A DNA stretch of 64,000 bases from an uncultured Methanosarcinales archaeon (GCA_964469645.1 CAYXZV010000001.1:31790-95789); one strand, 5' to 3'; positions 15,624 through 54,252 are shown, counted from the first letter of the stretch. Numbers and translations are program-made. Notes: a model not told the origin generated them from the letters alone.

Positions 15624-15635
15624 AGAGGTACTTAT

Positions 15636-39382: not shown

Positions 39383-39453
39383 GCCCGTGCTACTGGATGT
39401 AGACGAGATCTCCGCAAGATTTTGAATTGGGTTCGATTCCCAACACGGGCGCA
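39383..39453 (+). tRNA. Degenerate tRNA-like element (possible att remnant or element-borne tRNA)
   Basis: Acceptor GCCCGTG/CACGGGC. Good T arm TTGGG-TTCGATT-CCCAA. Anticodon-like arm AGATC-TCCGCAA-GATTT, but with C at position 33, a shortened D region and a 3-nt variable loop. Confidence 0.35.
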
Positions 39454-41665: not shown

Positions 41666-41813
41666 AGAGGAAGTTAAGGAGTATCTTTGGAAAGAATTTA
41701 AAAAATTTATGAAAGGACAAACAAATATGGTAGATACAAAAGGAAAACATCTTTATTATAGATGGGATGTAGATAATTTTTTAACAAATCCAGAAAAAAG
41801 ATTTTTTGATTAG
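41637..41813 (+). CDS. Small phage-like protein
   Basis: Start moved to ATG. The pattern FKKFMKGQT..VD.KGKHLYYRWDVDNFL resembles small phage proteins. Confidence 0.4.
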   Translation: MLKNKKYLTEEEVKEYLWKEFKKFMKGQTNMVDTKGKHLYYRWDVDNFLTNPEKRFFD

Positions 41814-41827
41814 AACGATGATTGAAT

Positions 41828-42046
41828 ATGAAAAGACAAGCAATGCAAGTTTCAATAAAAGAATTGGAAGATACAATTAAATGTTTAAAAAAAGAAAAAT
41901 TGGAAATTAAAAGAAAAACCGGAATTGAGTACCCAAAAGATAAGAAGTTTCAAGTGAATATTATAAATAAAGAACCAAAATGTTCAGATACCTGGGAATT
42001 TGAACAAAAGAAAGAAATAAATAGAAGAAGATATAACCCAATTTAA
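41828..42046 (+). CDS. Hypothetical small protein
   Basis: ORF track, start moved to ATG. Confidence 0.35.
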   Translation: MKRQAMQVSIKELEDTIKCLKKEKLEIKRKTGIEYPKDKKFQVNIINKEPKCSDTWEFEQKKEINRRRYNPI

Positions 42047-42076
42047 ATAGAAAAGTACAGATGCAGACTGATTAAT

Positions 42077-42535
42077 ATGAAAACTAATCAAGATAAGGCT
42101 TTAGTTGTGTTTCAAGGCAAGCAGATTAGAAGAATATGGTACAAGGATAGTTGGTTTTTCTCTGTTATTGATGTTGTAGAAGTATTGACAGGAAGTTCAA
42201 TTCCTAAGAGGTATTGGTCTGATCTTAAGATAAAGCTTAAAGAAGAAGGATTTGAGATGTACGATATTATCGTACGGTTGAAAATACAGGCTCCTGATGG
42301 GAAACTTAGAGAGACAGACTGCGCAAGTACAGAGACTATATTCAGAATTATCCAGTCTATTCCGTCACCGAAAGCAGAACCATTCAAAAGATGGTTAGCT
42401 GAAGTTGGCTATGAGAGAGTGCAAGAGATAGAAAATCCTGAACTTGCTCAAGATAGAGCAAAAGAGTACTATGAACTAAAAGGCTACCCTAAGGATTGGA
42501 TTGATAAGAGACTTAGGGGAATCGCTGTAATTTAG
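42077..42535 (+). CDS. Bro-N domain protein (prophage antirepressor-like), apparently C-terminally truncated
   Basis: FQGKQIRRIWYKDSWFFSVIDVVEVLT ... PKAEPFKRWLAEV is a Bro-N signature. The ORF ends at RLRGIAVI, where relatives continue. Confidence 0.7.
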   Translation: MKTNQDKALVVFQGKQIRRIWYKDSWFFSVIDVVEVLTGSSIPKRYWSDLKIKLKEEGFEMYDIIVRLKIQAPDGKLRETDCASTETIFRIIQSIPSPKAEPFKRWLAEVGYERVQEIENPELAQDRAKEYYELKGYPKDWIDKRLRGIAVI

Positions 42536-42546
42536 ATTTGCAAAAA

Positions 42547-43404
42547 ATGAAAAAAGATATTATTACTAAACTTAGAAAATCTTTTGAAGATTATGTAAAT
42601 GAAGCTGATGGTTTAGAATTCTGGTTTGCTAGAGATTTGCAAAAACTTCTTGATTATGATGAATGGAGAAATTTTGTCAATGTTATAGAAAAAGCAAAAA
42701 TAACATGCGGAAAATCAAGACAAAATATTTCTGACCATTTTGTTGATGTCAACAAAAAGGTCAAGATTGGTTCTGAAGCAGAAAGGGAAATTAATGATAT
42801 CATGCTTACAAGATATGCATGCTATCTTATTGCACAAAATGGAGATCCTAGAAAAGAGCAGATAGCTTTTGCTCAAAGTTATTTTGCTGTACAAACAAGG
42901 AAACAAGAATTGATTGAAGAAAGAATAGCTTTAGTTGAAAGATTAGGTGCAAGGCAAAAGCTTGTAGCTTCTGAAACTGAACTTTCTAAGCTTATCTATG
43001 AAAAAGGAGTTGATGAAGCAGGATTTGCAAGGATAAGGAGCAAAGGTGATAAAGCGTTATTTGGTGGTTTTACAACTTCTATGATGAAAGGTAAGCTTAA
43101 AATACCTAAGAGTAGGCCTTTGGCAGATTTTCTTCCAACAATAACAATAACAGCTAAGAATCTAGCAACAGAAATTACTAATTTTAACGTCAAGAAGAGC
43201 AGCTTACTTGGTGAAGATAACATCACAAATGAGCATGTAAGGAACAATTGGGAAGTAAGGGGGTTGTTGTCAAAAAGAGGGATAAAACCAGAAGAGTTGC
43301 CTCCTGAGGAAGATATTAAAAAGCTTGAAAGAAGAGTTAAGAAAGATGAGGAAATGATTGCAGTTGATTCAAAAAGTGGAAAGAAAAAATTGCTTAAAAA
43401 ATAA
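42547..43404 (+). CDS. DinD-like DNA-damage-inducible protein family member
   Basis: LEFWFARDLQKLLDYDEWRNFVNVIEKAK ... LTRYACYLIAQNGDPRKEQIAFAQSYFAVQTRKQE matches the DinD family pattern. Confidence 0.7.
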   Translation: MKKDIITKLRKSFEDYVNEADGLEFWFARDLQKLLDYDEWRNFVNVIEKAKITCGKSRQNISDHFVDVNKKVKIGSEAEREINDIMLTRYACYLIAQNGDPRKEQIAFAQSYFAVQTRKQELIEERIALVERLGARQKLVASETELSKLIYEKGVDEAGFARIRSKGDKALFGGFTTSMMKGKLKIPKSRPLADFLPTITITAKNLATEITNFNVKKSSLLGEDNITNEHVRNNWEVRGLLSKRGIKPEELPPEEDIKKLERRVKKDEEMIAVDSKSGKKKLLKK

Positions 43405-43462
43405 AAGTATAAAAGTTTAAAATAACAAATTTTAAGAATGCATTACTTTTTCTTATTATTGT

Positions 43463-43684
43463 GCTCCCATGGTGTAGTCCGGCCCAGCGGGAAATCTAGG
43501 ATTTCCTAGGTTTGTCTTGGGGACAAACAATCATCTCGGCCTCTCGCGCCGAGGACTCGGGTTCAAAACAGCTTTTTTGCCAAGGCAAAAAACCTGGGAA
43601 AATGCAGCTCACTTCCCGTTGGTCGTTCGCCTAGGATTTTGCTTCGCAAAATCAAAGAAGCTGATGAAAGTCCCGATGGGAGCA
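43463..43684 (+). tRNA. tRNA-Glu (CUC) with two introns (D-loop about 44 nt; T-loop 59/60, 103 nt)
   Basis: Acceptor GCTCCCA/TGGGAGC. D region GGTGTAGTCCGGCC[about 43485-43528]AATCAT. Anticodon arm TCGGC-CTCTCGC-GCCGA. T arm TCGGG-TTCAAA[43568-43670]T-CCCGA. The T-loop intron ends CTGATGAAAG, like the other two. Confidence 0.85.
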
Positions 43685-43774
43685 TTTATTTTTTCTGTTT
43701 TGTAGGCCTTTTCTGAATAGATAAATTTTTAAATGATTTCTTCTATGGATTATAAAAGCATTAAAAAGAGGAAA

Positions 43775-44779
43775 ATGAGCTTATTTTCAAATTTATTCAA
43801 AAAAAAAGAGAAGTTAACTAAAGAACAGATAGATGCAATAGATGCAAAAGTAGAGGAAACTAAGAAGAAATATTCTAAAAAAGAAAAATCAAGTGCTGAG
43901 CTGCCAAAGCATGTCGTTAAGAAGATTAAAAATGATACTCTTGAGCATCATCACAAACAGATTCTAAAGCAAAGAATAGAGCCTCATGAAACCATAAAAA
44001 AATCAGAACATCCTGAGAAGGAGAATATGCATAAGGGGCATGTCCATGATTTTGTTAAGACTGGAATTGTAGGTTTTGATGAGCTGATTGATGATGGGAT
44101 ACCTAAAGGTGCTGCTACATTGCTTTGTGGAGGTCCGGGTTCTGGAAAGACTATAATGGGATTGCAAATGTTGCATAATGCTGCATTGAAAGGAGAAAAA
44201 TGCATTTACATGACTTTTGAGGAGAATGAAGATAAATTAAGACAGCATATGGAAGATTTCGGGTGGGATTGGAAGAAATTAGAGAAAAGCGGGAATTTTA
44301 TAATTAAGAGATATGATCCTTTCTCGATAACAAGAGCTGTTGAAGCATTACTGGAAAAAGCAAAAGGAGAATTAATGATTGATGTAGCCCCTGTTTTATT
44401 TCCAAAGGGTTTTAAGCCAGAATGGGTAGTTATTGATTCGGTAACAGCTATTGCATCAGCATTTTATGGAAGAGAAGAGACCTATAGGATTTATATTGAA
44501 CAATTGTTTAGATTGCTAGAAGGTGTAGGGGCTACTTCCTTTTTAATAACAGAATCAAACCAAATTCCGTTAAAAATAACTGAGAGTGGAGTAGAAGAAT
44601 TTTTGGCAGATGGTGTTATTATTCTCTATAATATGAAATCTGGAAACGTAAGGGAAAGTGCAATTGAAGTTTTGAAATTAAGGGGCACAAGCTTCCAAAA
44701 GAAGATAGTGGCCATGAAAGTTGAAAGTGACAAAGGAATAGTGGTTTATCCAGAACAGGAAGTGTTTGGCGGGACTTAA
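43775..44779 (+). CDS. Single-domain KaiC/RadA-like ATPase with an N-terminal amphipathic, Lys-rich extension
   Basis: GFDELIDDGIPKGAATLLCGGPGSGKT Walker A. VVIDSV Walker B-like. N-terminus MSLFSNLFKKKEKLTKEQIDAIDAKVEE. Start moved to the ATG at 43775. Confidence 0.8.
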   Translation: MSLFSNLFKKKEKLTKEQIDAIDAKVEETKKKYSKKEKSSAELPKHVVKKIKNDTLEHHHKQILKQRIEPHETIKKSEHPEKENMHKGHVHDFVKTGIVGFDELIDDGIPKGAATLLCGGPGSGKTIMGLQMLHNAALKGEKCIYMTFEENEDKLRQHMEDFGWDWKKLEKSGNFIIKRYDPFSITRAVEALLEKAKGELMIDVAPVLFPKGFKPEWVVIDSVTAIASAFYGREETYRIYIEQLFRLLEGVGATSFLITESNQIPLKITESGVEEFLADGVIILYNMKSGNVRESAIEVLKLRGTSFQKKIVAMKVESDKGIVVYPEQEVFGGT

Positions 44780-44786
44780 ACAAAAA

Positions 44787-45335
44787 ATGAAAAGTCAACT
44801 GGAAAAAGAATTTACAGAACTTCCAAATGACGCTGTAGCTTTGGTTCTTTTACCTAATAAAAATTATGAAGAATTGAATATGGAGATGATTAAAATTCTA
44901 GTTAATCAAAAAAAACTTAGTGGAGCTTATGTAACTATTAACAGGCCATATGGAAACATAGTCAAAATAATGGAGAAGGAGGGAATTGACCCAAAGAAGC
45001 TATTTTTTGTGGATTGCGTTACTGAAAAAGACGAGAAAGAGGACAATTGCACTTTTATCAAGTCTGCAGAAATGTTGGAAGATATGGGAATCTCCTTAGA
45101 ACCTATGTATAGCAATAAATCCTACTCTTTTATCTTTTTTGACTCTATAGATGCATTATCAATATATCATGATACAAATACAGTAATAAGATTCGTACGT
45201 TCATTGATCAATAGACTTAGAGAAAATAATATGGGTGGGATCTTGGTGGGATTGCATGAGGAGACTGATAAGAGGACAGTTGATGAACTGGCAGCTGTTT
45301 GCGACAAGATCATTGATGCGAATGATAATCAATAA
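44787..45335 (+). CDS. KaiC/RecA-fold protein lacking a P-loop (pseudo-ATPase), paralog 1
   Basis: Aligns by eye with the KaiC-like domain. LPNDAVALVLLPNKNYEE replaces IPKGAATLLCGGPGSGKT. FIFFDSIDAL corresponds to VVIDSVTAI. Confidence 0.65.
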   Translation: MKSQLEKEFTELPNDAVALVLLPNKNYEELNMEMIKILVNQKKLSGAYVTINRPYGNIVKIMEKEGIDPKKLFFVDCVTEKDEKEDNCTFIKSAEMLEDMGISLEPMYSNKSYSFIFFDSIDALSIYHDTNTVIRFVRSLINRLRENNMGGILVGLHEETDKRTVDELAAVCDKIIDANDNQ

Positions 45336-45340
45336 GCAAT

Positions 45341-45892
45341 TTACAAATGTATAACCTTATCGCAGAACTGGCTTAATTGTGATGTTAATTTCTGGTCTGA
45401 TTCTTCATGTTGGGATAATATGATTCCATTAAACCCAAAGACCCTCATTTTTCCTGTTACAGAATGCACAAATTTCAATATAGAATCCATGTTATTGTGG
45501 ATTAATAATGATGAGATTGAGTCTATGTAAACAAACCTATTTTTTTCTCCAGTTGATGTAAAATAATCATGTAAGGCAATGCCAAGCTCTGTTAAATGCG
45601 CCGGGCTTTCTACCAAGACGCATTTGTCACCCTTACATATTTCCCCCCCTAGACCTTTTGATATGCAGTCAATAAACTGTATATTGTCTGTACTGATCTC
45701 CTTATTTTTTAATGAGTTCAGAATAGAGCTATAAGGCTTGCTTACAGAGACATATCCACCAGAAGATTTTTTCCTGTTTATAAGAAAGCTTAGCAAGTGC
45801 ATATTTGCCTCTTCATACTTGTCATTTGGCATTACAACGCCTACAATGAAATTCTCAGGCAAATCTTCCAATTCTTTTTCTAATTCTTCCAT
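45341..45892 (-). CDS. KaiC/RecA-fold protein lacking a P-loop (pseudo-ATPase), paralog 2
   Basis: Clear paralog of 44787-45335 (LPENFIVGVVMPNDKYEEANMHLLSFLINRKKSSGGYVSVSKPY vs LPNDAVALVLLPNKNYEELNMEMIKILVNQKKLSGAYVTINRPY). Confidence 0.65.
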   Translation of the reverse strand: MEELEKELEDLPENFIVGVVMPNDKYEEANMHLLSFLINRKKSSGGYVSVSKPYSSILNSLKNKEISTDNIQFIDCISKGLGGEICKGDKCVLVESPAHLTELGIALHDYFTSTGEKNRFVYIDSISSLLIHNNMDSILKFVHSVTGKMRVFGFNGIILSQHEESDQKLTSQLSQFCDKVIHL

Positions 45893-45927
45893 AATAAACC
45901 TTTTATTTTACTCATATATAAATTTTC

Positions 45928-46485
45928 TTATGTACTGTACTCAAACTTTATTATTGGCTTTAGATTCTTTATGTTGTACCATGCCAGGAAAGCCATTATT
46001 GAAGCCATAATGCCTAGGATAAATGCTATCAGGGCAAAATTCCATACAAATGACATAAGCTCTTTTGTGGCTGGAATAAATAAAAGCATAGTGAATGGAA
46101 TTGAAAAATTTGAAAATGCTGCGCCTAGGACAACATCCAAGGGTATGTTCTTGATCTCTTTTTTTAGCAATAGAAAGAATAATTCAAATATGATTGCAGC
46201 TATGAATAAGATAGGTACTTTGTAGAATCCTAACCCTCCAAGATTATTTATTGGGATTGATATTAGTGCTGCGAATAGATAAAACAATGTAACAGCTCCT
46301 AACTTTCTGATTAATAAGGCAGTAAAAGCCATAAACATAGTTGTTATGAACAAAGAAAGGAAAAAAGTGAATTGGTTGTCTGGAATGTTGGTTATCCATG
46401 TAATCAGTGCCCAAATGAAAGCTAATGCAACTATGACCAATAAATCTATTTTTCTGTAGCTCCTAAAGCTTTCCAGATTCATCAT
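45928..46485 (-). CDS. Polytopic membrane protein (5-6 TM)
   Basis: Hydrophobic throughout. Its start abuts the stop of the upstream gene. Confidence 0.65.
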   Translation of the reverse strand: MMNLESFRSYRKIDLLVIVALAFIWALITWITNIPDNQFTFFLSLFITTMFMAFTALLIRKLGAVTLFYLFAALISIPINNLGGLGFYKVPILFIAAIIFELFFLLLKKEIKNIPLDVVLGAAFSNFSIPFTMLLFIPATKELMSFVWNFALIAFILGIMASIMAFLAWYNIKNLKPIIKFEYST

Positions 46486-47526
46486 TCATAACACCCTCTT
46501 TGATTTTAATCTTTTATCCAATAATGTCTCTGTTACAGGCAGTTTTTGCTTTATTTCCACTAACCTTTCCTTGAATTTAGACATCTTTATCTCAAAAGTC
46601 TGTTTTGTAATGTCTCCTTTTGTAAAGTAATCTGACTGCGCTTTTTTCATCAGTTCATCTAAAATATCTTTTTCTACTTTCATATCTTTTATATTGCGCC
46701 TTAAGATTGCTATTCTGATCCTGTTATATAATAAGATTGCAATGACCAATAAAGAGCCAAGCAATAACAATAATGCCATAAGATGCTCTTTTACGAAATC
46801 AACAATGTTCTCTTTTCCTGCACGGTAGATTGTCCTTACTATGGTTGTTTCTGCGCTTAGATCTATCAGTTTAGCATCTACATTGTTTAAAATTTCTTCA
46901 ATGCTTTCAAACCTTTCATTTTCAAATTCGTTAATTGCAGTGGAAAGCATCTCTTCAGCTTCAAATGTATCTACATTTTGTTCCTTGAATTCCAAGATTC
47001 TTATTTCTGATGCTCTTATTAAATCACTAATCTCATAAGTTCTTTGTTTTCTTTCTGATATTGTTTTTGTTATTTCCAAAACTTTTTTGTAATTAACATC
47101 AACACCGATTTTTTCCTGGGCCGCAAGCAACAGACTTTTTGCATTTTCCCTCTTTTCTGTATCATTTATTCTTTCTATATCTTCCAATAAAGCGGTATAA
47201 TCCTCACCTTCGAAATATTTTTTAGTTTCTATTAAAGTGTCATTGAACCAACTGATTCCGAAGCCAGCTTCTTTTATTTCTACCATATCTGCTTCTGCTT
47301 GTAAGATTGCACTCAAAGCCTGTTCTTGAGTTATAACTTCTTCCGGTGTTTCATTAGTTGTTGCAGACAACTCTTCATTATCTTCAGCATCAAGAACTAC
47401 ATTACCGGTTATATTACCTGCACTATTGAAACCAACAAATACTAATAAAAATGTGCAGGCAACTAGAGTAATGAAGCTAACTCCGTACATTGATTTCTCT
47501 TCTTCTGTTAAATTATTTTCTTTCAT
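46486..47526 (-). CDS. Bitopic protein: helical ectodomain, TM, cytoplasmic SHOCT-like motif; paralog of the giant protein's C-terminal module
   Basis: N-terminal TM, helical Glu-rich ectodomain, second TM (LMALLLLLGSLLVIAILLY), then KDILDELMKKAQSDYFTKGDITKQTFEIKMSKFKERL. Collinear with residues around the TM of the 1746-aa protein. The start is uncertain (47526 or 47490). Confidence 0.7.
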   Translation of the reverse strand: MKENNLTEEEKSMYGVSFITLVACTFLLVFVGFNSAGNITGNVVLDAEDNEELSATTNETPEEVITQEQALSAILQAEADMVEIKEAGFGISWFNDTLIETKKYFEGEDYTALLEDIERINDTEKRENAKSLLLAAQEKIGVDVNYKKVLEITKTISERKQRTYEISDLIRASEIRILEFKEQNVDTFEAEEMLSTAINEFENERFESIEEILNNVDAKLIDLSAETTIVRTIYRAGKENIVDFVKEHLMALLLLLGSLLVIAILLYNRIRIAILRRNIKDMKVEKDILDELMKKAQSDYFTKGDITKQTFEIKMSKFKERLVEIKQKLPVTETLLDKRLKSKRVL

Positions 47527-48325
47527 TCTCCATGAGCAATCTATTGATGTTATCTTTTGCAATATCTTTCTTAAACATTGATTTTACTCTGGACCATAGT
47601 CTTGGATCTTTGTAGTTCTCTCCAATAAGAGCAGCTGCCAATTTTTTATATCCTATAGCTGCATTAGCTTTTGGCTTGTGAAGTGCTACTGGGTTTGTTG
47701 CTGTAACTGACTCCAAGACACTGATGTCTTCCGGAAGAACACTGACTACTGGAACACCAGCAGCTTCTTCTATATCCTCAATGCTCAACTCAAACTTTTT
47801 GTTTCTGACACGGTTTAAGATCAATCCAGTTATCGGCGTTTTTTTCTGCTTTGCTAATCTCACTGCACGCAAAGTAGTACTTAGCGTAGGGTAATCAGGG
47901 CTTGTCACTACAAGCAATTCATCAGAAGCTATCATTGTTGATAGTATCTCTTCGTTCAGATTTGGGCTGGAATCTATTAAGATCATATCATAGTGGTCTT
48001 TTAGATAGCCGATCTTGTGCTTTAATTTGAACGGATTTACTTTTCTTGATATATACGCTCCTGGAATGAAATGGAATCCAGATTCATGTTCATATATTGC
48101 GTCGTTCACATCCGCTTTGCCCAGCAGTATATCATGTATTGTCGCTCCCGGCTCTACTAAACCCAGATGCAGGCCTAAATTTGGCGCTGTAAAGTTCGCA
48201 TCTATAATTAAAGTTTTTTTGCCGAATTCGGATGCCAGCGCTGCGCCTAGATTTGCAACCGAGCTGGTTTTACCTACTCCACCTTTCAAACTTATTACTC
48301 CAATAATTTTTCCATTTTTACTCAT
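47513..48325 (-). CDS. MinD/ParA-family P-loop ATPase
   Basis: Deviant Walker A ISLKGGVGKTSS. IIDANFTAPN. DMILIDSSP Walker B. The start overlaps the upstream stop by 8 nt. Confidence 0.85.
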   Translation of the reverse strand: MSKNGKIIGVISLKGGVGKTSSVANLGAALASEFGKKTLIIDANFTAPNLGLHLGLVEPGATIHDILLGKADVNDAIYEHESGFHFIPGAYISRKVNPFKLKHKIGYLKDHYDMILIDSSPNLNEEILSTMIASDELLVVTSPDYPTLSTTLRAVRLAKQKKTPITGLILNRVRNKKFELSIEDIEEAAGVPVVSVLPEDISVLESVTATNPVALHKPKANAAIGYKKLAAALIGENYKDPRLWSRVKSMFKKDIAKDNINRLLMENERK

Positions 48326-51300
48326 TTTTGTACACCTCCTTAAAGTGTCTTATAATTCTATGTTTAGTGTGAGTTCTTGCTTTTGGCATAACATAAGTCG
48401 GCTCTGGTTTTTTGTGTTCTGCTACCTTAAAGCCATGCTTTTTCAAAGACTTTGCATCATCTGAATATTGTTTTACACGCGCTTTTGGCTTTATTTTATC
48501 CAATTCAAATCTATTTTTTATTTTAGAAATTATTTCCTTCCTCTTTTCTCCTGATTTATTGATTGATTTTTTACTTATCTTTACTTTGGGCATCTTGATC
48601 AAATTTTTCAAGGAGAATTTCTTCTTTATTTGATCTATTTTTTCAGTTGCTTTTTCTTTTCCCTGGAACAATTCTTTTATTGCGAGTTTGTTCTTTAGCG
48701 TTTGGATGCTTTCTTTTGATTTAGGAGGTATTGATTTAGGCTTGTCTTTCCTTTTTATCAAATCATCAAGCAGCTCATGGACACTTTCAGAATGGCCATC
48801 TTTTTCAGGCGCTGCTTTGGCAGAAATATGTTTACCTCTGCTAAACAACTTCTTAAGATTTAATTTACCAGTTAATTTCGGAATGAAAGCTAGGTTTTTC
48901 TTAATGCCAATGAATTTACTTTTAGGCATAATTGGAGGCAGCTTTCCAAATTTCCTGTCTTTCTTCTTGATTCTTGAGATTATCTCTTTTTTTGTGGCTT
49001 CTTTTGCTTCCAGATCTTCCAGTTTTTCTTTTTTGGCAAGCTTTGCTTCCATGACGGCTATGGATTTTTCAATTTCAATTGTGCGTGTTTTGTATTCTTT
49101 TATTCTTTTAAGGTAGGTTTTTCTTGGCACTGCCTGTTTGTTATAGTAACTGTCCTGCAATTGCTTAATCAAATTAGCAACATTTTCACTTTCTTTTTCC
49201 AGGTTCTTTATTTCATTGGAAATTTGTATTATTCCGACTCTTTTGGACCTTAGTCTGGAGACTGTTTGTGAAGCCTCACTCAACCTTTTCTCGTAACCAT
49301 ACATTGCCTTATGATACTCTGTTGTGTTGATTTTTTTGTCTTTGTAGTACTTGTTTTGGGTTTCCTGCATAAGTTCGTTAATGGTTGTTTCCTCCTTCTG
49401 CAGGTCCTCAAGCCTCCTTGAGATTACTATCAAAGCCAATTTTTTACGTGCAGTATAGCCAGCAATTGATAGTAAAATAAAGACAATTAAAAGAGGCCAC
49501 CAGTAATCGATCACGAACTTCAGTATGTTGAATTTACCTTTAGTTTCTATTACAATGGAAAGCTCTGCGTCTTTTGCGCGCTGTATAGCAGCTGAGAAAT
49601 CCTCTCTTTCAAATGCAGCCAGAGCAAGATTAAGTAGCTTTTTGGTTTCTTCTACTAACAGACCTATATCTTCTGATTTTCGTATTTTTGTCTTAATTTC
49701 ATAAATCAGGAAATCTGCTGAGAAAGCATTTTCTCCTATATTTTTGATTTGGTCAATAAGATTCTTTGCAGGAAGGTATTTTCTGTTATCTATGTTTTGC
49801 TCTGCTTCTTCCAGTAGTTTCAATGCTTTTGTTACTGGTATTCCTGAACTTTGCAGATTTGCTATAACACCCTCTGCATCTATTAGAGCATTAGTTACAT
49901 CGTCTTTGCTTGTTTCGTGGACTATCAGCGAAATGAAATTTTTGAGGCTATAAAGTGTTTTTGTTGTTATTGTGACATTTTCCGATTGCTCTGTCTTAAC
50001 TATCATCCCAGTAACAAGGGCCTGTAAAGTGTATTCTTCATAGCTCTTGTAAGTTGGTGCAGCTACATTTACAGTGAATGATTTGGTTTGCTGGAAGCCT
50101 AGATTGCTGATTACTGGTGGATTTACTGAAAGATATTGTGACAAGAACCCTGTTACTTTTAATGTAAGATTATTCATAACAGAATCATTGAATGTATTTG
50201 TTACATTTATTGTAAAGATATTTTCGCTGCCCCTGACTAAATCAACATTCTGCGATATCTCTATCTTTTCGGGCTCTACCGGAACTCTGACTATGCTGCC
50301 TCCTCCACCGCCACCGCCACTTCCACCTCCTCCACCGCCACCGCTACTGGTAGTAGTGGTTGTGGTTGTTGTGCTAGTAGAAGTTTCGGTAACTACAATT
50401 GAAGCAGTTGCACTATCACTAGCGCTATTATTTGAGGCTGCTGTGACATTTACTTTTTGTGTTCCTGTCGAAGCACTAGATGTAAGGTTTACAGTTATGT
50501 TATGGTAGACCGTTTCGCTAGTTGTAACATTCGTGAAATTTTTGGTTAAATTGGTGCCAGATATATTAAGCCAATTAGCTGGTAATGTCCAATTTATGAA
50601 AGTTACGCCAGCAGTTTCATTGCCTATATTCTTTAATGAAGCGTTTAAGTGATGCACTCCAGGATCACTCTTGTTTGCTTCTGTTGGAGGATTTATTATA
50701 TTAACTTCAAATAGAGGGCCTCCTGCAGACTCTGTGAATGTAAAATTGGTTGTTTCTGAATCCGGATCTGCATTAGAAGTTGTTGCGTCTATAGTTATGA
50801 TAACACTATTTTCAGATGCTGATGTGCCTGCAGTTAAACTTACATTTACAACTTTAACTTCTTTGGCAACTAAATCAAATGGCTCTGTTATATTATAAGA
50901 AGTATCTCCAAAATTAGAGCTTAAGTCGAAGTTTAATGTGAAGTCTCCAGTATTGTTTATTGTTAAATTTCCAGCTTCACATGTCGTGGAGAAGCCACAA
51001 GCTAAATTAGTAAATGTTCCTGGTTGCCTTTTCCAGGTACGATCGTTTTCTACAGAAATATTTTGAGTAAGCGAACTGTCATTGTTTCCTGCATGGTCAA
51101 GAGTATATATCCTATAACTCCAAGTATCAGCAATGTCTGGGGTGAAGGATGCATTGTAGAGGCCTGAACCTACGTTATATTGCATAGTTGAATTTGTGAA
51201 TGCTCCTGCCCCTGACTGCTTGTATTGTAGAATAGCTGTTTTTATTGCAGACACGTTATCTGTTACATTTACTGTAAAGTTAAGCAGCACATCCTGGTCA

Positions 51301-53558
51301 ACGTCATCTGTAGTGTTTGGGAAAAAACTTATTTTTTTAATTATTGGAGCGGTTAAATCTACGCTAAAGTTCCTTTGCTGGCTGCTATTCGAGTTTCCTG
51401 CCGGGTCCAAACAGGTTATATTCCAATTATGCCATCCTTCATTGAAGTTTTCAATGGTAAACGAAGTATTTGTTCCATTTTGTGTAGCTTCATTTGTAGA
51501 ATTTAATATTGCATCAACATTAATTGAACAATTTATGTCTATGGTGCTTATTTTATCTGTTACGTTGAAACTAAATGTAACATTCTGAGAGCTGAAATTA
51601 AACGTATCTATTGGAGTAATCAGGCTTATGTTTGGCTTTATGGTATCAATAGTGAAATTGACAGTTACATTAGCGCTGTAAGAAGTTGCAGTCACATTAT
51701 CAAATATAGTCACATTTAAAATATAAACTCCATCAGAAGCGTTAAATGTTGTGTTTAGTTCTGTTTGAGTTTGATTTAATACACTGTCGATATAATAAGT
51801 TATATTAATTACATCTCCATCGATATCAGCAGTATAGGTTATATTTAAATCTAAAGGCTGTAGATTTGTCTTGAAGTCATTAGTTGGATAAACTATGGTT
51901 GGTGTTGGAATTAAGTTTGCAACTTCTATCAACTGTCCAATAACTTCAGCACCGCCATCACTTCTATTTACGCTTTGGTTTATATTTCCACCAGGAGTAT
52001 CTATATCTGTATCATTTACAATAACTGTAAAGTTAATTACATTTCCTCTTCCCAAATCAATCGTCCAATTTTGAGAACATTGATCCTCTGTGTTAACAAC
52101 TGATTTATTTAAGATTATAAAGCTCCCATCAGAAGTTCCGTTCATGAAAAATCTGCAGGTATCTAAACCGATATTATCAGTTACGTTTGCCGTTAAATTT
52201 ACAATATCATTTAAAAGAGGAACTGAATTATTAAGGGAAGCATTAATTCTTGGTGTTCTATTGTCTACATTTTTCCTGCTATAAGCGACATCACCTCTCC
52301 ATAAGTCATCACCACGGGAAACTCCGTTATTTGATAGCTCTCCAAGACTAGACAATGAACTACCATCCCATAAAAACAAGTTTGCATCGTTTCCGGCATC
52401 CACATCCAAAGCAAGAATTTCATCTGAGCTTGAGTCGTTTTTTGAAACCATTCTAATAAGGGCATTATGATGATTATCTCCTGTATCAGGCCCGTTATTA
52501 GTTCCATCAATGGTTCCAGATGTATAGGTTTGGTAGTCTGGAGTATCTTCATTATTTTCATCCCCATACAAGAATAACCCTTCCAGAGAATTATGCTCAA
52601 AAGCAACTCCAATTGGATAACTGGTTAAATCAAGAATATCCCCACCAACTTCTCCTTCATCCTCCCACGCAGTACCACTCCACGAGAAAAAATTTGTGTC
52701 TCCATCATGATCAGCAATTATTAATAAAATTTCGTCGCTTCCAGGATTAGATGCAAGATCAATTTGGTTTGAATCATCACCCACTCCACCTTGTGTTAAT
52801 TGATCACTCCATGAACCAGTCCATGTTTGATAGTAAAGGGTACCAGCATCATTATCTGAACCTAATGCTATGGCTTCTCCTGATGTTGATTCAAATGCAC
52901 AGCCAATAGACACATGACCAACATTGTCTTGGTAATTGCCATCAGTATGTATCTCATCTGCAGTTCCCCATGTATCGCCATCCCAAACAACACCGTGTGA
53001 ATCCGCATCTGAACCTTCAACCACTAAAATTATCTCATCCTCTGTTGGGTCAGAGCAAAGCTCTACAATTTTTACAACAGCTCCAATGTCTTGACCAGTG
53101 CTTTCTTCACCACTCCAAGATAAATTTGTTTGGTTCCAAATTCGGTATTTGGGAATATTGGTTCCATCTCCGAAAACAACTAACCCATCTCCAGATTGAG
53201 ATTCAAAGATTACATCCATACCTTTAGAAAGAACATCTCCATCGGTCTCAATTTCAAGTAAGTCACTCCAATTTTTTGAATTTGCGTCCCAAGTCTGGAC
53301 ATTGACGTCACTATCAGCATCTAAAGTTGCCATAATTACTGTTGTAAGGTTAGGACTTGTGGCTAGCTCAACCCAATGTGCTACTGCCCCGATATCCAAC
53401 GCATTTATCTCAGATGAAACTGTTCCATTATATGTTACATATTTTGGATTATTTGAACTTTCTATGTAAACGGCCAAATATTGGTCAATATAGGCAAGGG
53501 TGGTAGTACTAGCTAACAAAATCATTAATACTAGTCCTAATAATAATTTATTATTCAT
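48318..53558 (-). CDS. Giant surface protein: signal, about 7 propeller-like repeats, sequon-rich Ig-like repeats, Thr/Gly linker, helical stalk, TM, about 480-aa Lys-rich cytoplasmic tail
   Basis: Start moved to MNNKLLLGLVLMILLASTTTLA (ATGA overlap with the wHTH gene). Repeats of type IGAVxxxVELxSxP...DxDxxxxxWDGxxW. Very dense N-x-S/T sequons. TTTTTTTTSSGGGGGGGSGGGGGGGS linker. TM YWWPLLIVFILLSIAGY. Coiled-coil K-rich tail. Confidence 0.85.
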   Translation of the reverse strand: MNNKLLLGLVLMILLASTTTLAYIDQYLAVYIESSNNPKYVTYNGTVSSEINALDIGAVAHWVELATSPNLTTVIMATLDADSDVNVQTWDANSKNWSDLLEIETDGDVLSKGMDVIFESQSGDGLVVFGDGTNIPKYRIWNQTNLSWSGEESTGQDIGAVVKIVELCSDPTEDEIILVVEGSDADSHGVVWDGDTWGTADEIHTDGNYQDNVGHVSIGCAFESTSGEAIALGSDNDAGTLYYQTWTGSWSDQLTQGGVGDDSNQIDLASNPGSDEILLIIADHDGDTNFFSWSGTAWEDEGEVGGDILDLTSYPIGVAFEHNSLEGLFLYGDENNEDTPDYQTYTSGTIDGTNNGPDTGDNHHNALIRMVSKNDSSSDEILALDVDAGNDANLFLWDGSSLSSLGELSNNGVSRGDDLWRGDVAYSRKNVDNRTPRINASLNNSVPLLNDIVNLTANVTDNIGLDTCRFFMNGTSDGSFIILNKSVVNTEDQCSQNWTIDLGRGNVINFTVIVNDTDIDTPGGNINQSVNRSDGGAEVIGQLIEVANLIPTPTIVYPTNDFKTNLQPLDLNITYTADIDGDVINITYYIDSVLNQTQTELNTTFNASDGVYILNVTIFDNVTATSYSANVTVNFTIDTIKPNISLITPIDTFNFSSQNVTFSFNVTDKISTIDINCSINVDAILNSTNEATQNGTNTSFTIENFNEGWHNWNITCLDPAGNSNSSQQRNFSVDLTAPIIKKISFFPNTTDDVDQDVLLNFTVNVTDNVSAIKTAILQYKQSGAGAFTNSTMQYNVGSGLYNASFTPDIADTWSYRIYTLDHAGNNDSSLTQNISVENDRTWKRQPGTFTNLACGFSTTCEAGNLTINNTGDFTLNFDLSSNFGDTSYNITEPFDLVAKEVKVVNVSLTAGTSASENSVIITIDATTSNADPDSETTNFTFTESAGGPLFEVNIINPPTEANKSDPGVHHLNASLKNIGNETAGVTFINWTLPANWLNISGTNLTKNFTNVTTSETVYHNITVNLTSSASTGTQKVNVTAASNNSASDSATASIVVTETSTSTTTTTTTTSSGGGGGGGSGGGGGGGSIVRVPVEPEKIEISQNVDLVRGSENIFTINVTNTFNDSVMNNLTLKVTGFLSQYLSVNPPVISNLGFQQTKSFTVNVAAPTYKSYEEYTLQALVTGMIVKTEQSENVTITTKTLYSLKNFISLIVHETSKDDVTNALIDAEGVIANLQSSGIPVTKALKLLEEAEQNIDNRKYLPAKNLIDQIKNIGENAFSADFLIYEIKTKIRKSEDIGLLVEETKKLLNLALAAFEREDFSAAIQRAKDAELSIVIETKGKFNILKFVIDYWWPLLIVFILLSIAGYTARKKLALIVISRRLEDLQKEETTINELMQETQNKYYKDKKINTTEYHKAMYGYEKRLSEASQTVSRLRSKRVGIIQISNEIKNLEKESENVANLIKQLQDSYYNKQAVPRKTYLKRIKEYKTRTIEIEKSIAVMEAKLAKKEKLEDLEAKEATKKEIISRIKKKDRKFGKLPPIMPKSKFIGIKKNLAFIPKLTGKLNLKKLFSRGKHISAKAAPEKDGHSESVHELLDDLIKRKDKPKSIPPKSKESIQTLKNKLAIKELFQGKEKATEKIDQIKKKFSLKNLIKMPKVKISKKSINKSGEKRKEIISKIKNRFELDKIKPKARVKQYSDDAKSLKKHGFKVAEHKKPEPTYVMPKARTHTKHRIIRHFKEVYKNE

Positions 53559-53776
53559 CTCTTCATCTCCCAAACATTTAGATTGCTGATCCTGTATCCG
53601 TTTATTTTGCCAGCAAGTTGTAATCTGAAACAATGACCTTGAACAGAATGCCATGCTCTTTTGATTTTCAGAGCAATATCTCTTGTAGAAATTGGCTTTG
53701 AAGAATCTTGAAGAACTCTAAGTATGTCTGACTCTATTTTTTTGCCTAATTTAGCTTTTCTGGTTTGTGTTGCCAT
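53555..53776 (-). CDS. Small winged-helix DNA-binding protein
   Basis: 73 aa. ESDILRVLQDSSKPISTRDIALKIKRAWHSVQGHCFRLQLAGKI fits a wHTH. A TATA-like TTTATAAATA lies upstream on the minus strand at about 53808-53820. Confidence 0.65.
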   Translation of the reverse strand: MATQTRKAKLGKKIESDILRVLQDSSKPISTRDIALKIKRAWHSVQGHCFRLQLAGKINGYRISNLNVWEMKR

Positions 53777-53949
53777 ACTCCTCTTTTTGAGTATTAATTG
53801 AATTCCCTATTTATAAAGCTTTCGATTCGTATTAACATTCTCATTAATATTAGTGCTAACATTCGCACTTAGGAATATCATGGAAAATTGCACCAAAAGA
53901 TTTAAATAGGAGTTTTGGCAGAGTAGTATAAAACAAAAAGAGGGTAAAA

Positions 53950-54252
53950 ATGGGATTTTTTGACCTGTTCAAGAAAAAAAGCGGAAAATTAACACAAGAA
54001 CAAGTTGATGAGATAGAAGAAAAAGTTGAAGAGTCGGAAGAAAAGCACCCAGAAGACGAGACAATATTCTCTAATTTAAGAAAACCTACACAAATAGTTA
54101 AACCTGTTAAAAAGACAGCTAAAAAACCTATTAAAAAGAAAGTTAAAAAATCCAGTGCAAAGAGGGCTAAGAAACAAAGTAAAAAGAAAGTTAAGAAGCA
54201 AGTTAGGAAAGCTAAGAGACCTGCTAAGAAGAAGGGGAAGAAGAAAAGATAA
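53950..54252 (+). CDS. Small protein: amphipathic N-terminus, acidic segment, extremely Lys-rich basic tail
   Basis: MGFFDLFKKKSGKLTQEQVDEIEEKVEE ... then KKPIKKKVKKSSAKRAKKQSKKKVKK. TATA TTTAAATA lies about 45 nt upstream. Confidence 0.6.
   Translation: MGFFDLFKKKSGKLTQEQVDEIEEKVEESEEKHPEDETIFSNLRKPTQIVKPVKKTAKKPIKKKVKKSSAKRAKKQSKKKVKKQVRKAKRPAKKKGKKKR

What the first reader, a model, noticed from the sequence alone, without database searches (positions are those of the whole stretch)
43775..54252. Coupled wHTH / giant adhesin / MinD / stalk paralog / membrane protein / pseudo-KaiC operon with flanking KaiC-like ATPase: candidate undescribed surface-protein organising system
Seen: six minus-strand ORFs are packed with overlapping or abutting stop/start codons.
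- wHTH (53776-53555) has an ATGA overlap with the 1746-aa surface protein (53558-48318).
- That protein overlaps a MinD/ParA ATPase (48325-47513) by 8 nt.
- The ATPase overlaps a 346-aa bitopic protein (47526-46486).
- That protein abuts a 185-aa polytopic membrane protein (46485-45928).
- After 35 nt comes a RecA/KaiC-fold protein without a P-loop (45892-45341).
Converging on this operon are a second P-loop-less paralog (44787-45335) and an intact KaiC-like ATPase (43775-44779). On the other flank sits a small basic protein (53950-54252) that shares the KaiC-like protein's N-terminal motif.
No pilin or archaellin, FlaI/VirB11-type ATPase, or FlaJ/PilC-type platform gene is present. It therefore does not read as an archaellum, type IV pilus or known secretion locus.
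Inference: the cytoplasmic ATPases (MinD plus KaiC with two pseudo-KaiC partners) may position, cluster or remodel the giant envelope protein. They would act through its roughly 480-aa Lys-rich coiled-coil tail and the paralogous stalk protein. In an episymbiotic DPANN-like cell this could be a host-attachment apparatus.
Basis: partly seen in the sequence, partly recalled or inferred. Interest (0 to 1): 0.8.

Follow-up and report, generated by a model that had tools for sequence, protein, structure and literature searches.

The report
DPANN surface receptor wired to KaiC
A tiny marine archaeon encodes a very large cell-surface protein and a small partner protein that, across many related genomes, sit next to cytoplasmic signalling genes, so the cluster is probably an undescribed surface sensor (possibly for host contact) and not just an adhesin-positioning machine.

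Summary
All nine ORFs, their overlaps and their family assignments were confirmed: KaiC, two P-loop-less KaiC paralogs (iKaiC, DUF7504), an archaeal MinD, a 1746-aa type I surface protein and its 346-aa paralog.

Two corrections apply. The cytoplasmic tail is about 380 aa, not 480. The last gene of the "six-gene operon" probably has its own promoter.

Comparison with about 48 related loci from Woesearchaeota, Pacearchaeota and "Nanoarchaeota" MAGs and metagenomes changes the emphasis.
- **Universal core:** the gene pair giant protein plus small paralog. Both share a helical stalk, one TM helix and a conserved cytoplasmic hairpin. The family has no Pfam model and has 1855 representatives.
- **Recurrent neighbours:** signalling genes, either iKaiC with KaiC, or iKaiC with receiver domains and histidine kinases. 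Their density is 3.4 per 10 kb within 2 kb of the pair and falls to 0 beyond 8 kb.
- **Subclade additions:** MinD, the wHTH-like protein and the 185-aa membrane protein (ECF S-component-like fold).

Best reading: a two-chain surface receptor coupled to the archaeal KaiC/iKaiC signalling hub, with MinD as a later clustering accessory. I found no description of it in the searchable literature. Nothing is experimentally tested. I file it as a new variant of a known kind, interest about 0.6.

The parts
53555..53776 (-). 73-aa small protein, probable winged-HTH regulator. It is the first gene of the operon and is found only in the MinD-containing subclade.
   Evidence: ORF. ATGA overlap with the giant gene. 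Orthologs 49-77% identical in L003, L007, L008, L011, L013 and L051. Weak HTH_12 hit (0.013). Best PDB profile hit is the Lrp DNA-binding domain at E 0.58.
53808..53817 (-). TATA-like box TTTATAAATA, 32-41 nt upstream of the wHTH ATG, followed by an AGAGGAG Shine-Dalgarno-like sequence. Putative operon promoter.
   Evidence: Sequence read directly. The reading is an inference from the pattern of TATA boxes upstream of other genes in the window.
48318..53558 (-). 1746-aa type I membrane glycoprotein, the 'giant' receptor chain.
   Evidence: ORF. Signal peptide at 6-24 and a single TM at 1348-1366. There are 67 N-x-S/T sequons before the TM (5.0 per 100 aa) against 2 after it (0.5 per 100 aa). 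Orthologs in all related loci.
51789..53486 (-). Variable N-terminal head (residues 25-590) with four motif copies spaced about 100 aa apart (hhhh-D-x-D-x-D...W).
   Evidence: Not alignable to orthologous giants, whose similarity starts at about residue 430-630. Only 3 remote homologs in 5.8 billion proteins, one of which starts with a pilin N_methyl motif. Motif positions.
49989..51788 (-). Conserved ectodomain (residues 591-1190): an Ig-like array interrupted by a Thr/Gly-rich linker at about residues 1064-1100.
   Evidence: 27-66% identity to orthologs. Weak Big_13 and DUF7035 hits here. NPCBM_assoc (1.5e-9) and CARDB (1.2e-5) hits in orthologs. PDB hits to scFv chains come only from the Gly-rich linker and are artefacts.
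48321..49988 (-). Stalk-TM-tail module of the giant protein (residues 1191-1746): helical membrane-proximal stalk, TM at 1348-1366, and a 377-aa Lys-rich tail with two copies of the roughly 55-aa juxtamembrane motif.
   Evidence: Homology to the 346-aa protein. Tail composition. Tail alignment.
48333..48340 (-). Shine-Dalgarno AGGAGGTG embedded in the last codons of the giant gene, 7 nt before the MinD ATG. It gives translational coupling.
   Evidence: GAGGT is invariant across all six MinD-containing loci, and its codons barely vary at synonymous sites (one G/A change at each flank), whereas the I/L and F/L codons upstream vary freely. Absent from 19 MinD-less giants.
47513..48325 (-). 270-aa archaeal MinD-type ATPase with a C-terminal amphipathic helix.
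   Evidence: TIGR01969 3e-58; AAA_31, CbiA and ParA hits. Deviant Walker A SLKGGVGKT and a conserved C-terminal R(V/L)KS(M/I/L)FKK in orthologs.
46486..47526 (-). 346-aa small paralog of the receptor: N-terminal signal anchor, helical ectodomain, TM at 252-270 and a cytoplasmic helical hairpin.
   Evidence: Hydropathy. AF2 model with pLDDT 79, all-helical. No PDB fold match and no Pfam hit. 1855 family representatives. The cytoplasmic motif is the most conserved part.
45928..46485 (-). 185-aa polytopic membrane protein with an ECF S-component-like fold.
   Evidence: AF2 pLDDT 82, pTM 0.80. Top Foldseek PDB hits are ECF S components: 5edl (TM 0.65, prob 1.0, E 0.04), ThiT and RibU. No Pfam hit. 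56 homologs, all about 185 aa. Found only in the close clade plus L006.
45915..45922 (-). TATA-like box TTTATATA, 23-30 nt upstream of the iKaiC ATG at 45892. Probably a separate promoter.
   Evidence: About ten other genes in the window have a box at a similar distance (21-35 nt upstream of the start codon).
45341..45892 (-). 183-aa inactivated KaiC (iKaiC, DUF7504).
   Evidence: DUF7504 1.1e-6, DUF835 and KaiC hits. No Walker A and no catalytic EE; Walker B D-S retained. Orthologs 63-68% identical in L007 and L008.
44787..45335 (+). 182-aa second iKaiC (DUF7504), convergent with the first.
   Evidence: DUF7504 7e-7 and KaiC 8e-7. 32% identical to the other iKaiC. Active-site losses shown.
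43775..44779 (+). 334-aa single-domain KaiC-family ATPase with a roughly 90-aa Lys-rich N-terminal extension.
   Evidence: PF06745 1.3e-55. Walker A and catalytic EE present. Orthologs 54-81% identical next to the receptor genes in 8 loci. The N-terminal MS(L/I)FS.LFKK.EKLT.EQ motif is conserved in 4 loci.
53950..54252 (+). 100-aa basic ORF: a stand-alone copy of the KaiC N-terminal module plus a poly-Lys tail. Lineage-specific; its membership in the system is uncertain.
   Evidence: 47% identity over 68 aa to the N-terminus of L008 KaiC. The motif census finds it only in KaiC N-termini, this ORF and the tail of the L003 giant. Absent at other loci.

Best explanation
The locus encodes a two-chain transmembrane receptor of DPANN archaea coupled to KaiC-type signal transduction.

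**Shown.**
- The 1746-aa protein is a Sec-exported type I protein. It has a variable head, a conserved Ig-like array, a helical stalk, one TM helix and a basic cytoplasmic tail. The sequon bias suggests it is N-glycosylated.
- The 346-aa protein is a paralog of the stalk-TM-juxtamembrane part.
- The two genes are adjacent in essentially every related locus.
- The best-conserved element of the whole family is the roughly 55-aa cytoplasmic helical hairpin.
- Signalling genes are strongly concentrated next to the pair.

**Inferred.**
- The two chains form a hetero-oligomeric stalk/TM bundle.
- Engagement of the ectodomain (a ligand, or contact with another cell such as a host) changes the cytoplasmic hairpins and tail.
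- These dock the P-loop-less iKaiC adaptors, which in turn modulate the active KaiC ATPase. In distant relatives the partners are receiver-domain and histidine-kinase proteins instead.
- The flow could also run inside-out, with KaiC state setting receptor conformation.

**Subclade additions in this window.**
- A membrane-binding MinD is translated in tight coupling with the receptor and probably clusters or positions it.
- A six-helix ECF-S-like membrane protein is a possible co-sensor or small-molecule binding subunit.
- A small wHTH-like protein is a probable autoregulator or output.
For: **Receptor architecture.**
- Signal peptide, single TM, and 5.0 against 0.5 sequons per 100 aa outside against inside.
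- Paralogy of the two chains.
- A giant gene sits directly upstream of the paralog gene in essentially every locus with upstream DNA, across sequences only 25-30% identical.
- The cytoplasmic hairpin is the most conserved region and is modelled with pLDDT of about 90.
- Large family without annotation: 1855 representatives, 593 at E<=1e-30.

**Link to signalling.**
- KaiC, iKaiC, REC or HK genes number 3.37 per 10 kb within 2 kb of the pair, then 1.18, 0.75, 0.52 and 0 with increasing distance.
- 19 of 27 non-redundant loci with at least 4 kb of flank have at least one such gene within 6 kb.
- In L036, L040, L015 and L049, REC and iKaiC genes follow the paralog gene in the same orientation, directly after it except in L015 (about 1.1 kb downstream).
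- The linkage survives rearrangement: KaiC is convergent downstream (window, L003, L005, L011-L013), upstream in the same orientation (L006, L028, L030, L034), or divergent (L020, L022).
- iKaiC is a recognised signalling and output domain fused to REC in other archaea (PMC5847659).
- A short module, KLT.EQ..I..KV.E, occurs only in KaiC N-termini, in the 100-aa ORF and inside the cytoplasmic tail of the L003 giant: 7 hits in 2208 ORFs.

**MinD.**
- MinD is coupled through an embedded perfect Shine-Dalgarno sequence and carries a MinD-like C-terminal amphipathic sequence.
- Archaeal MinD4 positions chemosensory arrays and archaella (bioRxiv 10.1101/2020.04.03.021790).

**Not the S-layer.** A separate S-layer-like protein exists in the window (PF05124, 5e-10).
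Against: - No experiment exists for any component. Everything beyond architecture and linkage is guilt by association.
- The direction of information flow is unknown.
- 8 of 27 informative loci show no signalling gene in the DNA available.
- The window itself has no REC or HK gene.
- The only physical fusion with a kinase (the L001/L002 giant) has no TM segment between the HATPase domain and the ectodomain-like part. It is topologically inconsistent and may be a deletion chimera.
- The stalk model has no structural analogue among known sensors.
- Lys-rich tails may partly reflect the AT-rich genome (34% GC).
- The iKaiC-hairpin contact is untested.
- The main source paper on KaiC hubs (PMC5717392) could not be read.
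Confidence: 0.5

Rival explanations
1. The cytoplasmic ATPases (MinD, plus KaiC with two pseudo-KaiC partners) are a machine that positions, clusters or remodels a giant adhesin. The primary function is attachment, not sensing.
For: - MinD is translationally coupled between the two receptor genes.
- MinD+ giants tend to have longer tails (305-381 aa where measurable, against 141-297 aa in MinD- loci).
- The ectodomain is adhesin-like: Ig-like, CARDB and NPCBM_assoc domains, and a remote homolog of the head starts with a pilin motif.
- Archaeal and bacterial MinD/ParA proteins position membrane complexes.
Against: - MinD is absent from 19 of 25 giant-plus-paralog loci, so it cannot be the ancestral mechanism.
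- In the MinD-less clades the partners are REC, HK and iKaiC, which are classical signalling parts.
- In L013 the 'giant' is only 563 aa with almost no ectodomain, yet MinD, the paralog and KaiC are kept. A large adhesin is therefore not required.
- The conserved C-terminal 'KEV' of MinD+ giants is a Shine-Dalgarno sequence, not demonstrably a MinD-binding peptide.
Confidence: 0.22
2. The giant protein and its paralog are structural envelope components: an S-layer-like canopy plus a membrane stalk, analogous to SlaA/SlaB. The neighbouring KaiC, iKaiC and TCS genes merely regulate their expression.
For: - C-terminally anchored protein with many N-glycosylation sequons, Ig-like arrays and a Thr-rich linker.
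- A small 'stalk' partner.
- A wHTH-like gene at the operon head.
Against: - A different ORF in the same window carries the S-layer domain PF05124.
- The most conserved part of the family is cytoplasmic, not extracellular.
- The tails are long (150-390 aa).
- The head is hypervariable and the ectodomain can be nearly absent (L013).
- Tight co-orientation with REC and iKaiC genes is unusual for a purely structural gene.
Confidence: 0.12
3. The operon is a substrate-uptake or transport module built around the ECF-S-like 185-aa membrane protein. The large proteins would be accessory capture factors.
For: The fold of the 185-aa protein matches ECF S components best: 5edl at TM 0.65, then ThiT and RibU.
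Against: - The Foldseek E-values are weak (0.04-1.6).
- There is no Pfam S-component hit.
- No EcfT or EcfA genes are in the locus.
- The 185-aa protein is absent from most loci that keep the giant-plus-paralog pair.
Confidence: 0.04
4. Two unrelated units, the receptor operon and a KaiC/iKaiC unit, lie side by side by chance.
For: - They are on opposite strands in the window.
- iKaiC2 probably has its own promoter.
Against: - Adjacency recurs in different arrangements in at least 19 independent loci.
- Gene density decays steeply with distance from the pair.
- A sequence module is shared between KaiC and a giant tail.
Confidence: 0.02

Closest known systems
Archaeal KaiC/iKaiC signal-transduction neighbourhoods (Makarova, Galperin & Koonin 2017, mBio; iKaiC and REC-iKaiC architectures in Galperin et al. 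2018, PMC5847659)
   Same: - An active single-domain KaiC ATPase lies next to P-loop-less KaiC paralogs (DUF7504/DUF7090/DUF835-like).
- In relatives the same iKaiC genes sit beside receiver domains and histidine kinases.
   Different: - The constant partner here is a giant surface protein plus its bitopic paralog. That family has no Pfam or PDB match, and I found no description of it.
- The 2017 paper itself could not be read, so prior mention there cannot be excluded.
MinD/ParA-family positioning of membrane signalling arrays (Haloferax MinD4; bacterial ParC/PpfA for chemoreceptor arrays)
   Same: - Deviant Walker A ATPase with a C-terminal amphipathic membrane-targeting sequence.
- It is encoded with a large membrane receptor complex.
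   Different: - The gene is embedded between the two receptor genes with a Shine-Dalgarno sequence inside the upstream coding sequence.
- There are no chemotaxis (MCP/CheA) or archaellum genes.
- MinD is dispensable in most of the family.
Two-component sensor kinases and bitopic receptors with accessory membrane co-sensors
   Same: - An extracellular sensing part, a single TM and a conserved juxtamembrane helical element.
- HK and REC genes are adjacent in distant relatives.
   Different: - The receptor chains carry no HAMP, HisKA or HATPase domain.
- The one fusion, in L001, is topologically odd.
- The cytoplasmic part is a hairpin plus a basic low-complexity tail.
Integrin-type adhesion receptors (functional analogy only, recalled from general knowledge)
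   Same: A heteromeric type I membrane protein with a repeat-built head, Ig-like 'legs', single TM helices and short cytoplasmic elements that could signal in both directions.
   Different: - No sequence or demonstrated fold relationship.
- The propeller is unverified.
- The partners are KaiC/iKaiC and MinD.
ECF-transporter S components (ThiT, RibU, 5edl)
   Same: The predicted six-helix fold of the 185-aa protein.
   Different: - No sequence-family hit.
- No EcfT or EcfA genes nearby.
- The protein is linked to receptor genes, not transporter genes.

Membership tests
Archaeal KaiC/iKaiC signalling hub | KaiC-family RecA-fold ATPase with intact Walker A, Walker B and catalytic Glu | tested here: met
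   PF06745 1.3e-55. GGPGSGKT, TFEENE and hhhhDS are present in the alignment.
Archaeal KaiC/iKaiC signalling hub | Adjacent inactivated KaiC homolog(s) lacking the P-loop | tested here: met
   Two DUF7504/KaiC-like ORFs. Walker A and the catalytic EE are replaced; the D-S of Walker B is kept.
Archaeal KaiC/iKaiC signalling hub | Genomic association with sensor or two-component domains | tested here: met
   Not in the window itself. REC and HK genes flank the iKaiC genes in L001, L003, L015, L027, L030, L034, L036, L040 and L049.
Archaeal KaiC/iKaiC signalling hub | ATPase activity, autophosphorylation and partner switching | not testable with these tools
   Biochemistry is required.
Archaeal MinD (MinD/ParA superfamily) | Match to the family model at its curated cut-off | tested here: inconclusive
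   TIGR01969 scores 196.8 bits (E 3e-58) against a cut-off of 201.75. Pfam AAA_31, CbiA and ParA are above their cut-offs.
Archaeal MinD (MinD/ParA superfamily) | Deviant Walker A with signature Lys (KGGxGK[ST]) | tested here: met
   SLKGGVGKT at residues 12-20, conserved in 5 orthologs.
Archaeal MinD (MinD/ParA superfamily) | C-terminal amphipathic membrane-targeting sequence | tested here: inconclusive
   A conserved R(V/L)KS(M/I/L)FKK lies about 20 residues from the C-terminus. It resembles the bacterial MinD MTS by eye. No helical-moment or binding test was done.
Archaeal MinD (MinD/ParA superfamily) | Cognate cargo or activator | not testable with these tools
   Inferred to be the receptor tails. 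The conserved giant C-terminus is largely explained by an embedded Shine-Dalgarno sequence.
Archaellum / type IV pilus | ArlI/PilB-type ATPase, ArlJ/TadC platform and class III signal-peptide pilins in the locus | tested here: not met
   No such Pfam or NCBIfam hits for any of the nine ORFs. ArlH is only a weak sub-threshold hit of KaiC (38.8 bits against 215).
ECF transporter | S-component fold | tested here: inconclusive
   The top five Foldseek PDB hits are S components, but with E 0.04-0.7 and TM 0.47-0.65.
ECF transporter | EcfT and EcfA/A' energising module, or an S-component sequence family | tested here: not met
   No Pfam hit for the 185-aa protein. No ABC or EcfT genes in the cluster, in the window or in relatives.
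Two-component sensor histidine kinase | HisKA and HATPase_c domains in the membrane protein | tested here: not met
   Absent from the window's giant and paralog. Present N-terminally in the L001 giant, but without an intervening TM.
S-layer protein | S-layer domain family or lattice formation | tested here: not met
   No S-layer Pfam hit for the giant. ORF 20267-22858 carries PF05124 instead. Lattice formation is not testable here.
Archaeal AspA-ParB-ParA segrosome (gene order wHTH - adaptor - ParA) | ParB-like adaptor and a nucleoid-binding ParA | tested here: not met
   The middle gene is a membrane glycoprotein. The ATPase is MinD-type with a membrane-targeting-like C-terminus. Only the gene order is reminiscent.

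The most novel reading that the evidence does not exclude
The giant protein and its paralog define a DPANN-wide, previously unrecognised class of heteromeric cell-surface receptors. These would sense contact with a host or partner cell and relay it through a conserved cytoplasmic hairpin to iKaiC adaptors and a KaiC (or REC/HK) switch. That would make it the first candidate contact-sensing pathway of episymbiotic archaea. The head domain would be swapped between lineages to match different targets, and MinD would have been recruited in one clade to cluster the receptor at the contact site.
Probability: 0.3. Interest if true: 0.8.

Novelty: new variant of a known kind. Interest (0 to 1): 0.62.

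Why it matters
Woesearchaeota and Pacearchaeota-type DPANN archaea are abundant and uncultivated, and are thought to depend on other cells. How they recognise or respond to partners is unknown.

This cluster supplies a concrete and widespread candidate, with 1855 family representatives:
- a modular surface receptor with a hypervariable head;
- a conserved cytoplasmic docking element;
- genetically linked KaiC, iKaiC and two-component parts.

It would also give the still hypothetical archaeal 'KaiC signalling hub' a defined membrane input and a defined role for the inactivated KaiC paralogs. Both can be tested by complex prediction, pull-downs and metatranscriptomics.

Tried and rejected
- **SHOCT-like motif.** I suspected the cytoplasmic motif was SHOCT-like. 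Pfam scans of 33 members at E<=1 gave no consistent family, so I dropped the idea.
- **PDB sequence hits of the giant.** All 279 hits are scFv or similar chains that match only the Gly-rich linker. They are artefacts.
- **Fold search of the paralog model.** Foldseek of the 346-aa model against PDB returned only nonspecific long-helix proteins (best E 0.25).
- **HK-giant fusion in L001/L002.** I first read it as a Rosetta-stone link. There is no TM between the HATPase domain and the ectodomain part, so I downgraded it to evidence of adjacency, possibly a deletion chimera.
- **Conserved giant C-terminus I(I/L)..(F/L)KEV(Y/H).** It perfectly separates MinD+ from MinD- loci and looked like a MinD-binding peptide. 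Codon inspection shows that KEV is the Shine-Dalgarno AGGAGGTG of MinD. Only the I/L..F/L part varies synonymously.
- **Stalk C-terminal KRLKSKRVL.** Similar endings occur in MinD-less L005, so it is not MinD-specific.
- **Head domain.** No Pfam hit, no BLAST self-repeats, and only 3 remote homologs.
- **Broad alignment A3.** It was too divergent for the locus finder. A4 worked.
- **Makarova 2017 KaiC paper.** It is not held in the library.
- **Literature.** Searches for DPANN+KaiC+MinD, for DUF7504 and for KaiC+Woesearchae found nothing relevant.
- **Sigma-70 promoter and terminator scan.** Not used, because the organism is archaeal. TATA-box positions were read instead. The motif is not enriched overall (28 found against 23 expected), so each individual box is only suggestive.

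Full report
**1. Observation**

Reading the junctions base by base confirms five things:
- an ATGA stop/start overlap between the 73-aa gene and the 1746-aa gene;
- an 8-nt overlap between the 1746-aa gene and the MinD gene;
- a 14-nt overlap between MinD and the 346-aa gene;
- a stop codon directly abutting the ATG of the 185-aa gene;
- a 35-nt spacer before the next gene.

The start at 47526, not the upstream TTG at 47562, agrees with the N-termini of 32 homologs. The KaiC start at 43775 agrees with its orthologs.

Profile searches gave these assignments:

| ORF (window) | Assignment | Evidence |
|---|---|---|
| 43775-44779 | KaiC | PF06745, 1.3e-55 |
| 44787-45335 and 45341-45892 | DUF7504/KaiC-like | 32% identical to each other, 5e-38 |
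| 47513-48325 | archaeal MinD | TIGR01969, 3e-58, 5 bits under the curated cut-off |

An alignment shows that the two paralogs have lost the Walker A loop and the catalytic Glu pair. They keep the Walker B Asp-Ser.

Hydropathy and sequon counts define the large protein as a type I membrane protein:
- signal peptide at residues 6-24 and a single TM at 1348-1366;
- 67 N-x-S/T sequons outside against 2 inside;
- a 377-aa tail that is 22% Lys.

The 346-aa protein aligns to residues 1286-1441 of the giant, across the TM helix (3e-11).

Context genes show the organism is an archaeon: eIF2-alpha, PAC2 and SRP54/FtsY. Identical proteins come from a Tara Oceans mesopelagic scaffold. Related genomes are labelled Nanoarchaeota, Woesearchaeota and Pacearchaeota MAGs.

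**2. Transcription units**

An exact TATA-like octamer (TTTAWATA) lies 21-35 nt upstream of the start codons of about ten genes in the window. One of them (45915-45922, minus strand) sits 23-30 nt before the ATG of the first P-loop-less paralog, inside the 35-nt spacer. The motif is not enriched overall (28 found, 23 expected), so this is suggestive only. It does make a five-gene operon plus a separate iKaiC unit more likely than a six-gene operon.

Upstream of the 73-aa gene there is a TTTATAAATA box and an AGAGGAG Shine-Dalgarno-like sequence.

The last codons of the giant gene contain a perfect Shine-Dalgarno sequence, AGGAGGTG, 7 nt before the MinD ATG. Its GAGGT core is invariant in six orthologous loci and its codons barely vary at synonymous sites. 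MinD is therefore translationally coupled to the giant protein.

**3. Relatives and conserved linkage**

The 346-aa protein has 47 word-index hits. A profile search of 1.84 billion cluster representatives finds 1855 hits, 593 of them at E<=1e-30. Most are 290-360 aa. Some are 1400-2100 aa with the module at the C-terminus. No member hits a consistent Pfam family.

I collected 58 loci. I annotated them with HMMs built from the components. Four results follow.

- **(i) The pair is constant.** A giant gene carrying the conserved ectodomain and the stalk module lies directly upstream of the small paralog in essentially every locus with upstream DNA. This holds down to 25-30% identity.
- **(ii) Signalling genes cluster at the pair.** Their density by distance from the pair is shown below.

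| Distance from the pair | Signalling genes per 10 kb |
|---|---|
| 0-2 kb | 3.37 |
| 2-4 kb | 1.18 |
| 4-6 kb | 0.75 |
| 6-8 kb | 0.52 |
| 8-10.5 kb | 0 |

  Of 27 non-redundant loci with at least 4 kb of flank, 19 have at least one signalling gene within 6 kb. In the window's clade these genes are KaiC plus iKaiC. L003 adds a HAMP histidine kinase and a receiver. L008 adds a CheC-like protein. In the distant clades they are REC-REC-(REC)-iKaiC, often with a Cache/HAMP kinase. These lie in the same orientation as the paralog gene, directly after it in L036 and L040 and about 1.1 kb downstream in L015.
- **(iii) The linkage survives rearrangement.** KaiC is found convergent, upstream or divergent.
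- **(iv) Three genes are subclade additions.** MinD and the 73-aa gene occur only in the window plus five related loci: L003, L007, L008, L011 and L013. The 185-aa membrane protein occurs only in the close clade and L006. In L013 the 'giant' is just 563 aa and consists essentially of the stalk-TM-tail module.

The head of the giant (residues 1-590) is not conserved even among close orthologs. It has only three remote homologs in 5.8 billion proteins, one of which begins with a pilin N-methylation motif.

**4. The unknown proteins**

*The 346-aa protein.* The AF2 model has mean pLDDT 79 and is entirely helical. It shows an N-terminal signal anchor, a helical ectodomain, a TM helix that continues into a cytoplasmic helix, a four-residue turn and a second helix. 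This hairpin has pLDDT of about 90. Foldseek finds no PDB analogue.

The hairpin motif is E..vL..LMKK.Q.ERFK.NKISGLVYNIRMKKY.ER...IK..LPVLE. It is the best conserved part of the whole family. The giant's tail carries two copies.

*The 185-aa protein.* The model has pLDDT 82 and pTM 0.80. It matches ECF-transporter S components best: 5edl at TM 0.65, then ThiT and RibU. The E-values are weak, there is no sequence-family hit, and no EcfT or EcfA genes lie nearby.

*The 73-aa protein.* It has the spacing of an AsnC/Lrp-type winged helix by eye, but only marginal scores.

**5. A module shared by KaiC and the receptor tail**

The KaiC orthologs of this clade carry a Lys-rich N-terminal extension that begins MS(L/I)FS.LFKK.EKLT.EQ.D.I..KV.E. 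A pattern for the helical part finds 7 matches in 2208 ORFs of the window and all loci. The matches are the KaiC N-termini, the window's 100-aa basic ORF, and one site inside the cytoplasmic tail of the L003 giant.

The 100-aa ORF is therefore a stand-alone copy of this module. It is not conserved elsewhere. Its presence in a receptor tail is a small independent hint that KaiC and the tail meet.

**6. Most likely mechanism**

*Shown:* the architecture, topology and paralogy, the constant gene pairing, the conservation of the cytoplasmic hairpin, the concentration of KaiC, iKaiC, REC and HK genes next to the pair, and the MinD coupling.

*Inferred:*
- The two chains form a hetero-oligomeric stalk/TM bundle.
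- The hairpins and tail dock iKaiC adaptors, which modulate KaiC. In other clades the partners are receiver and kinase proteins.
- The variable head binds a ligand or another cell's surface.
- MinD has a MinD-like amphipathic C-terminus. Together with the 185-aa protein and the wHTH-like protein, it is a later addition for clustering, co-sensing and regulation. Archaeal MinD4 positions chemosensory arrays and archaella.

iKaiC domains (DUF835, MEDS) are already recognised as partners of receiver domains in archaea. KaiC-family ATPases have been proposed as signalling hubs (cited). The source paper could not be read.

I put about 0.5 on this reading. The direction of signalling is open.

**7. 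Rivals**

It is compatible with the MinD data but cannot be ancestral. MinD is missing from 19 of 25 giant-plus-paralog loci, and the large ectodomain is dispensable in L013.
- **A structural, S-layer-like role (0.12).** Three points weaken it. The window has a separate PF05124 S-layer-like ORF. The family's conservation is cytoplasmic. The genes are tightly co-oriented with REC and iKaiC genes.
- **A transport role centred on the ECF-S-like protein (0.04).** It lacks the energising module, and the protein is absent from most loci.
- **Chance adjacency (0.02).** The distance decay contradicts it.

**8. Comparison with known systems, and novelty**

The cytoplasmic side is a member of the predicted archaeal KaiC/iKaiC signalling class. 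The MinD is an ordinary archaeal MinD by sequence. The new part is the membrane input: a very large, unannotated family of paired receptor chains. It has a hypervariable head and a conserved cytoplasmic hairpin, and in one clade it is combined with MinD, an ECF-S-like protein and a small regulator.

Archaellum and type IV pilus membership, two-component kinase membership (for the receptor chains), ECF transporter membership, S-layer membership and segrosome membership were each tested and not met. I found no paper describing the cluster.

I file it as a new variant of a known kind, with interest 0.62. The most novel reading not excluded is a DPANN-wide contact-sensing receptor class. I give that 0.3 probability and 0.8 interest if true.

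Noticed in passing
window 43461-43688 (+): A GC-rich element of about 228 nt lies between the Bro-N gene and KaiC. Its ends pair (GUGCUCCCA...UGGGAGCA). It folds at -90.3 kcal/mol, z = -4.9 against shuffles. It contains tRNA-like D-arm and T-loop strings. Neither Rfam in E-value mode nor ARAGORN recognises it, and a 12-mer from it is absent from all fetched loci. It may be a multi-intron archaeal tRNA or an unknown ncRNA.
   Followed up: partly
window 9661-17416 and 20267-22858: A BatA/vWA protein (620 aa), a vWA protein (809 aa), a MoxR AAA_3 ATPase and a DUF58 protein lie together, followed by an 863-aa protein with the S-layer domain PF05124 (5e-10). The set resembles the 'putative novel secretion system' of MoxR, vWA and S-layer-like proteins described by Makarova et al. 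2015 (PMC5898192).
   Followed up: partly
L001 5316-10004 (same in L002): A 1562-aa ORF joins a complete sensor kinase (two TMs, HAMP, HisKA, HATPase_c; residues 1-545) directly to the conserved ectodomain-stalk-TM-tail of the giant family, with no TM in between. It is found in two independent assemblies. The topology is paradoxical. It may be a deletion-derived chimera or a pseudogene.
   Followed up: partly
window, many intergenic regions (e.g. 24201, 33196, 37294, 42042, 54292, 29636, 63177, 18407): The TATA-like octamer TTTAWATA sits 21-35 nt upstream of start codons. This suggests mostly leaderless or short-leader transcripts in this genome.
   Followed up: no
window 40889-43404: A nucleotidyltransferase (Polbeta/NTP_transf_2) protein and two consecutive Bro-N domain proteins lie just upstream of the KaiC unit. 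This may be a small mobile or defence-related islet. The flanks of the cluster differ between genomes.
   Followed up: no
window 37513-37571 (+) and 39383-39452 (+): The two tRNA finders disagree. Rfam calls a tRNA at 37513-37571 (33.6 bits) that ARAGORN misses. ARAGORN calls tRNA-Ala(CGC) at 39383-39452 that Rfam misses at gathering threshold.
   Followed up: no
L008 11621-12254 and 17814-20708: In the closest MAG, a HepT/MNT toxin-antitoxin pair is inserted between the 185-aa gene and the iKaiC genes. The signalling block there also contains a CheC-like protein (6e-8) and a second, divergent MinD/ParA.
   Followed up: no
window 56121-58433 (+): A 770-aa polytopic membrane protein with no Pfam hit at E<=0.001 lies directly downstream of a short (583-aa) alanyl-tRNA synthetase.
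   Followed up: no
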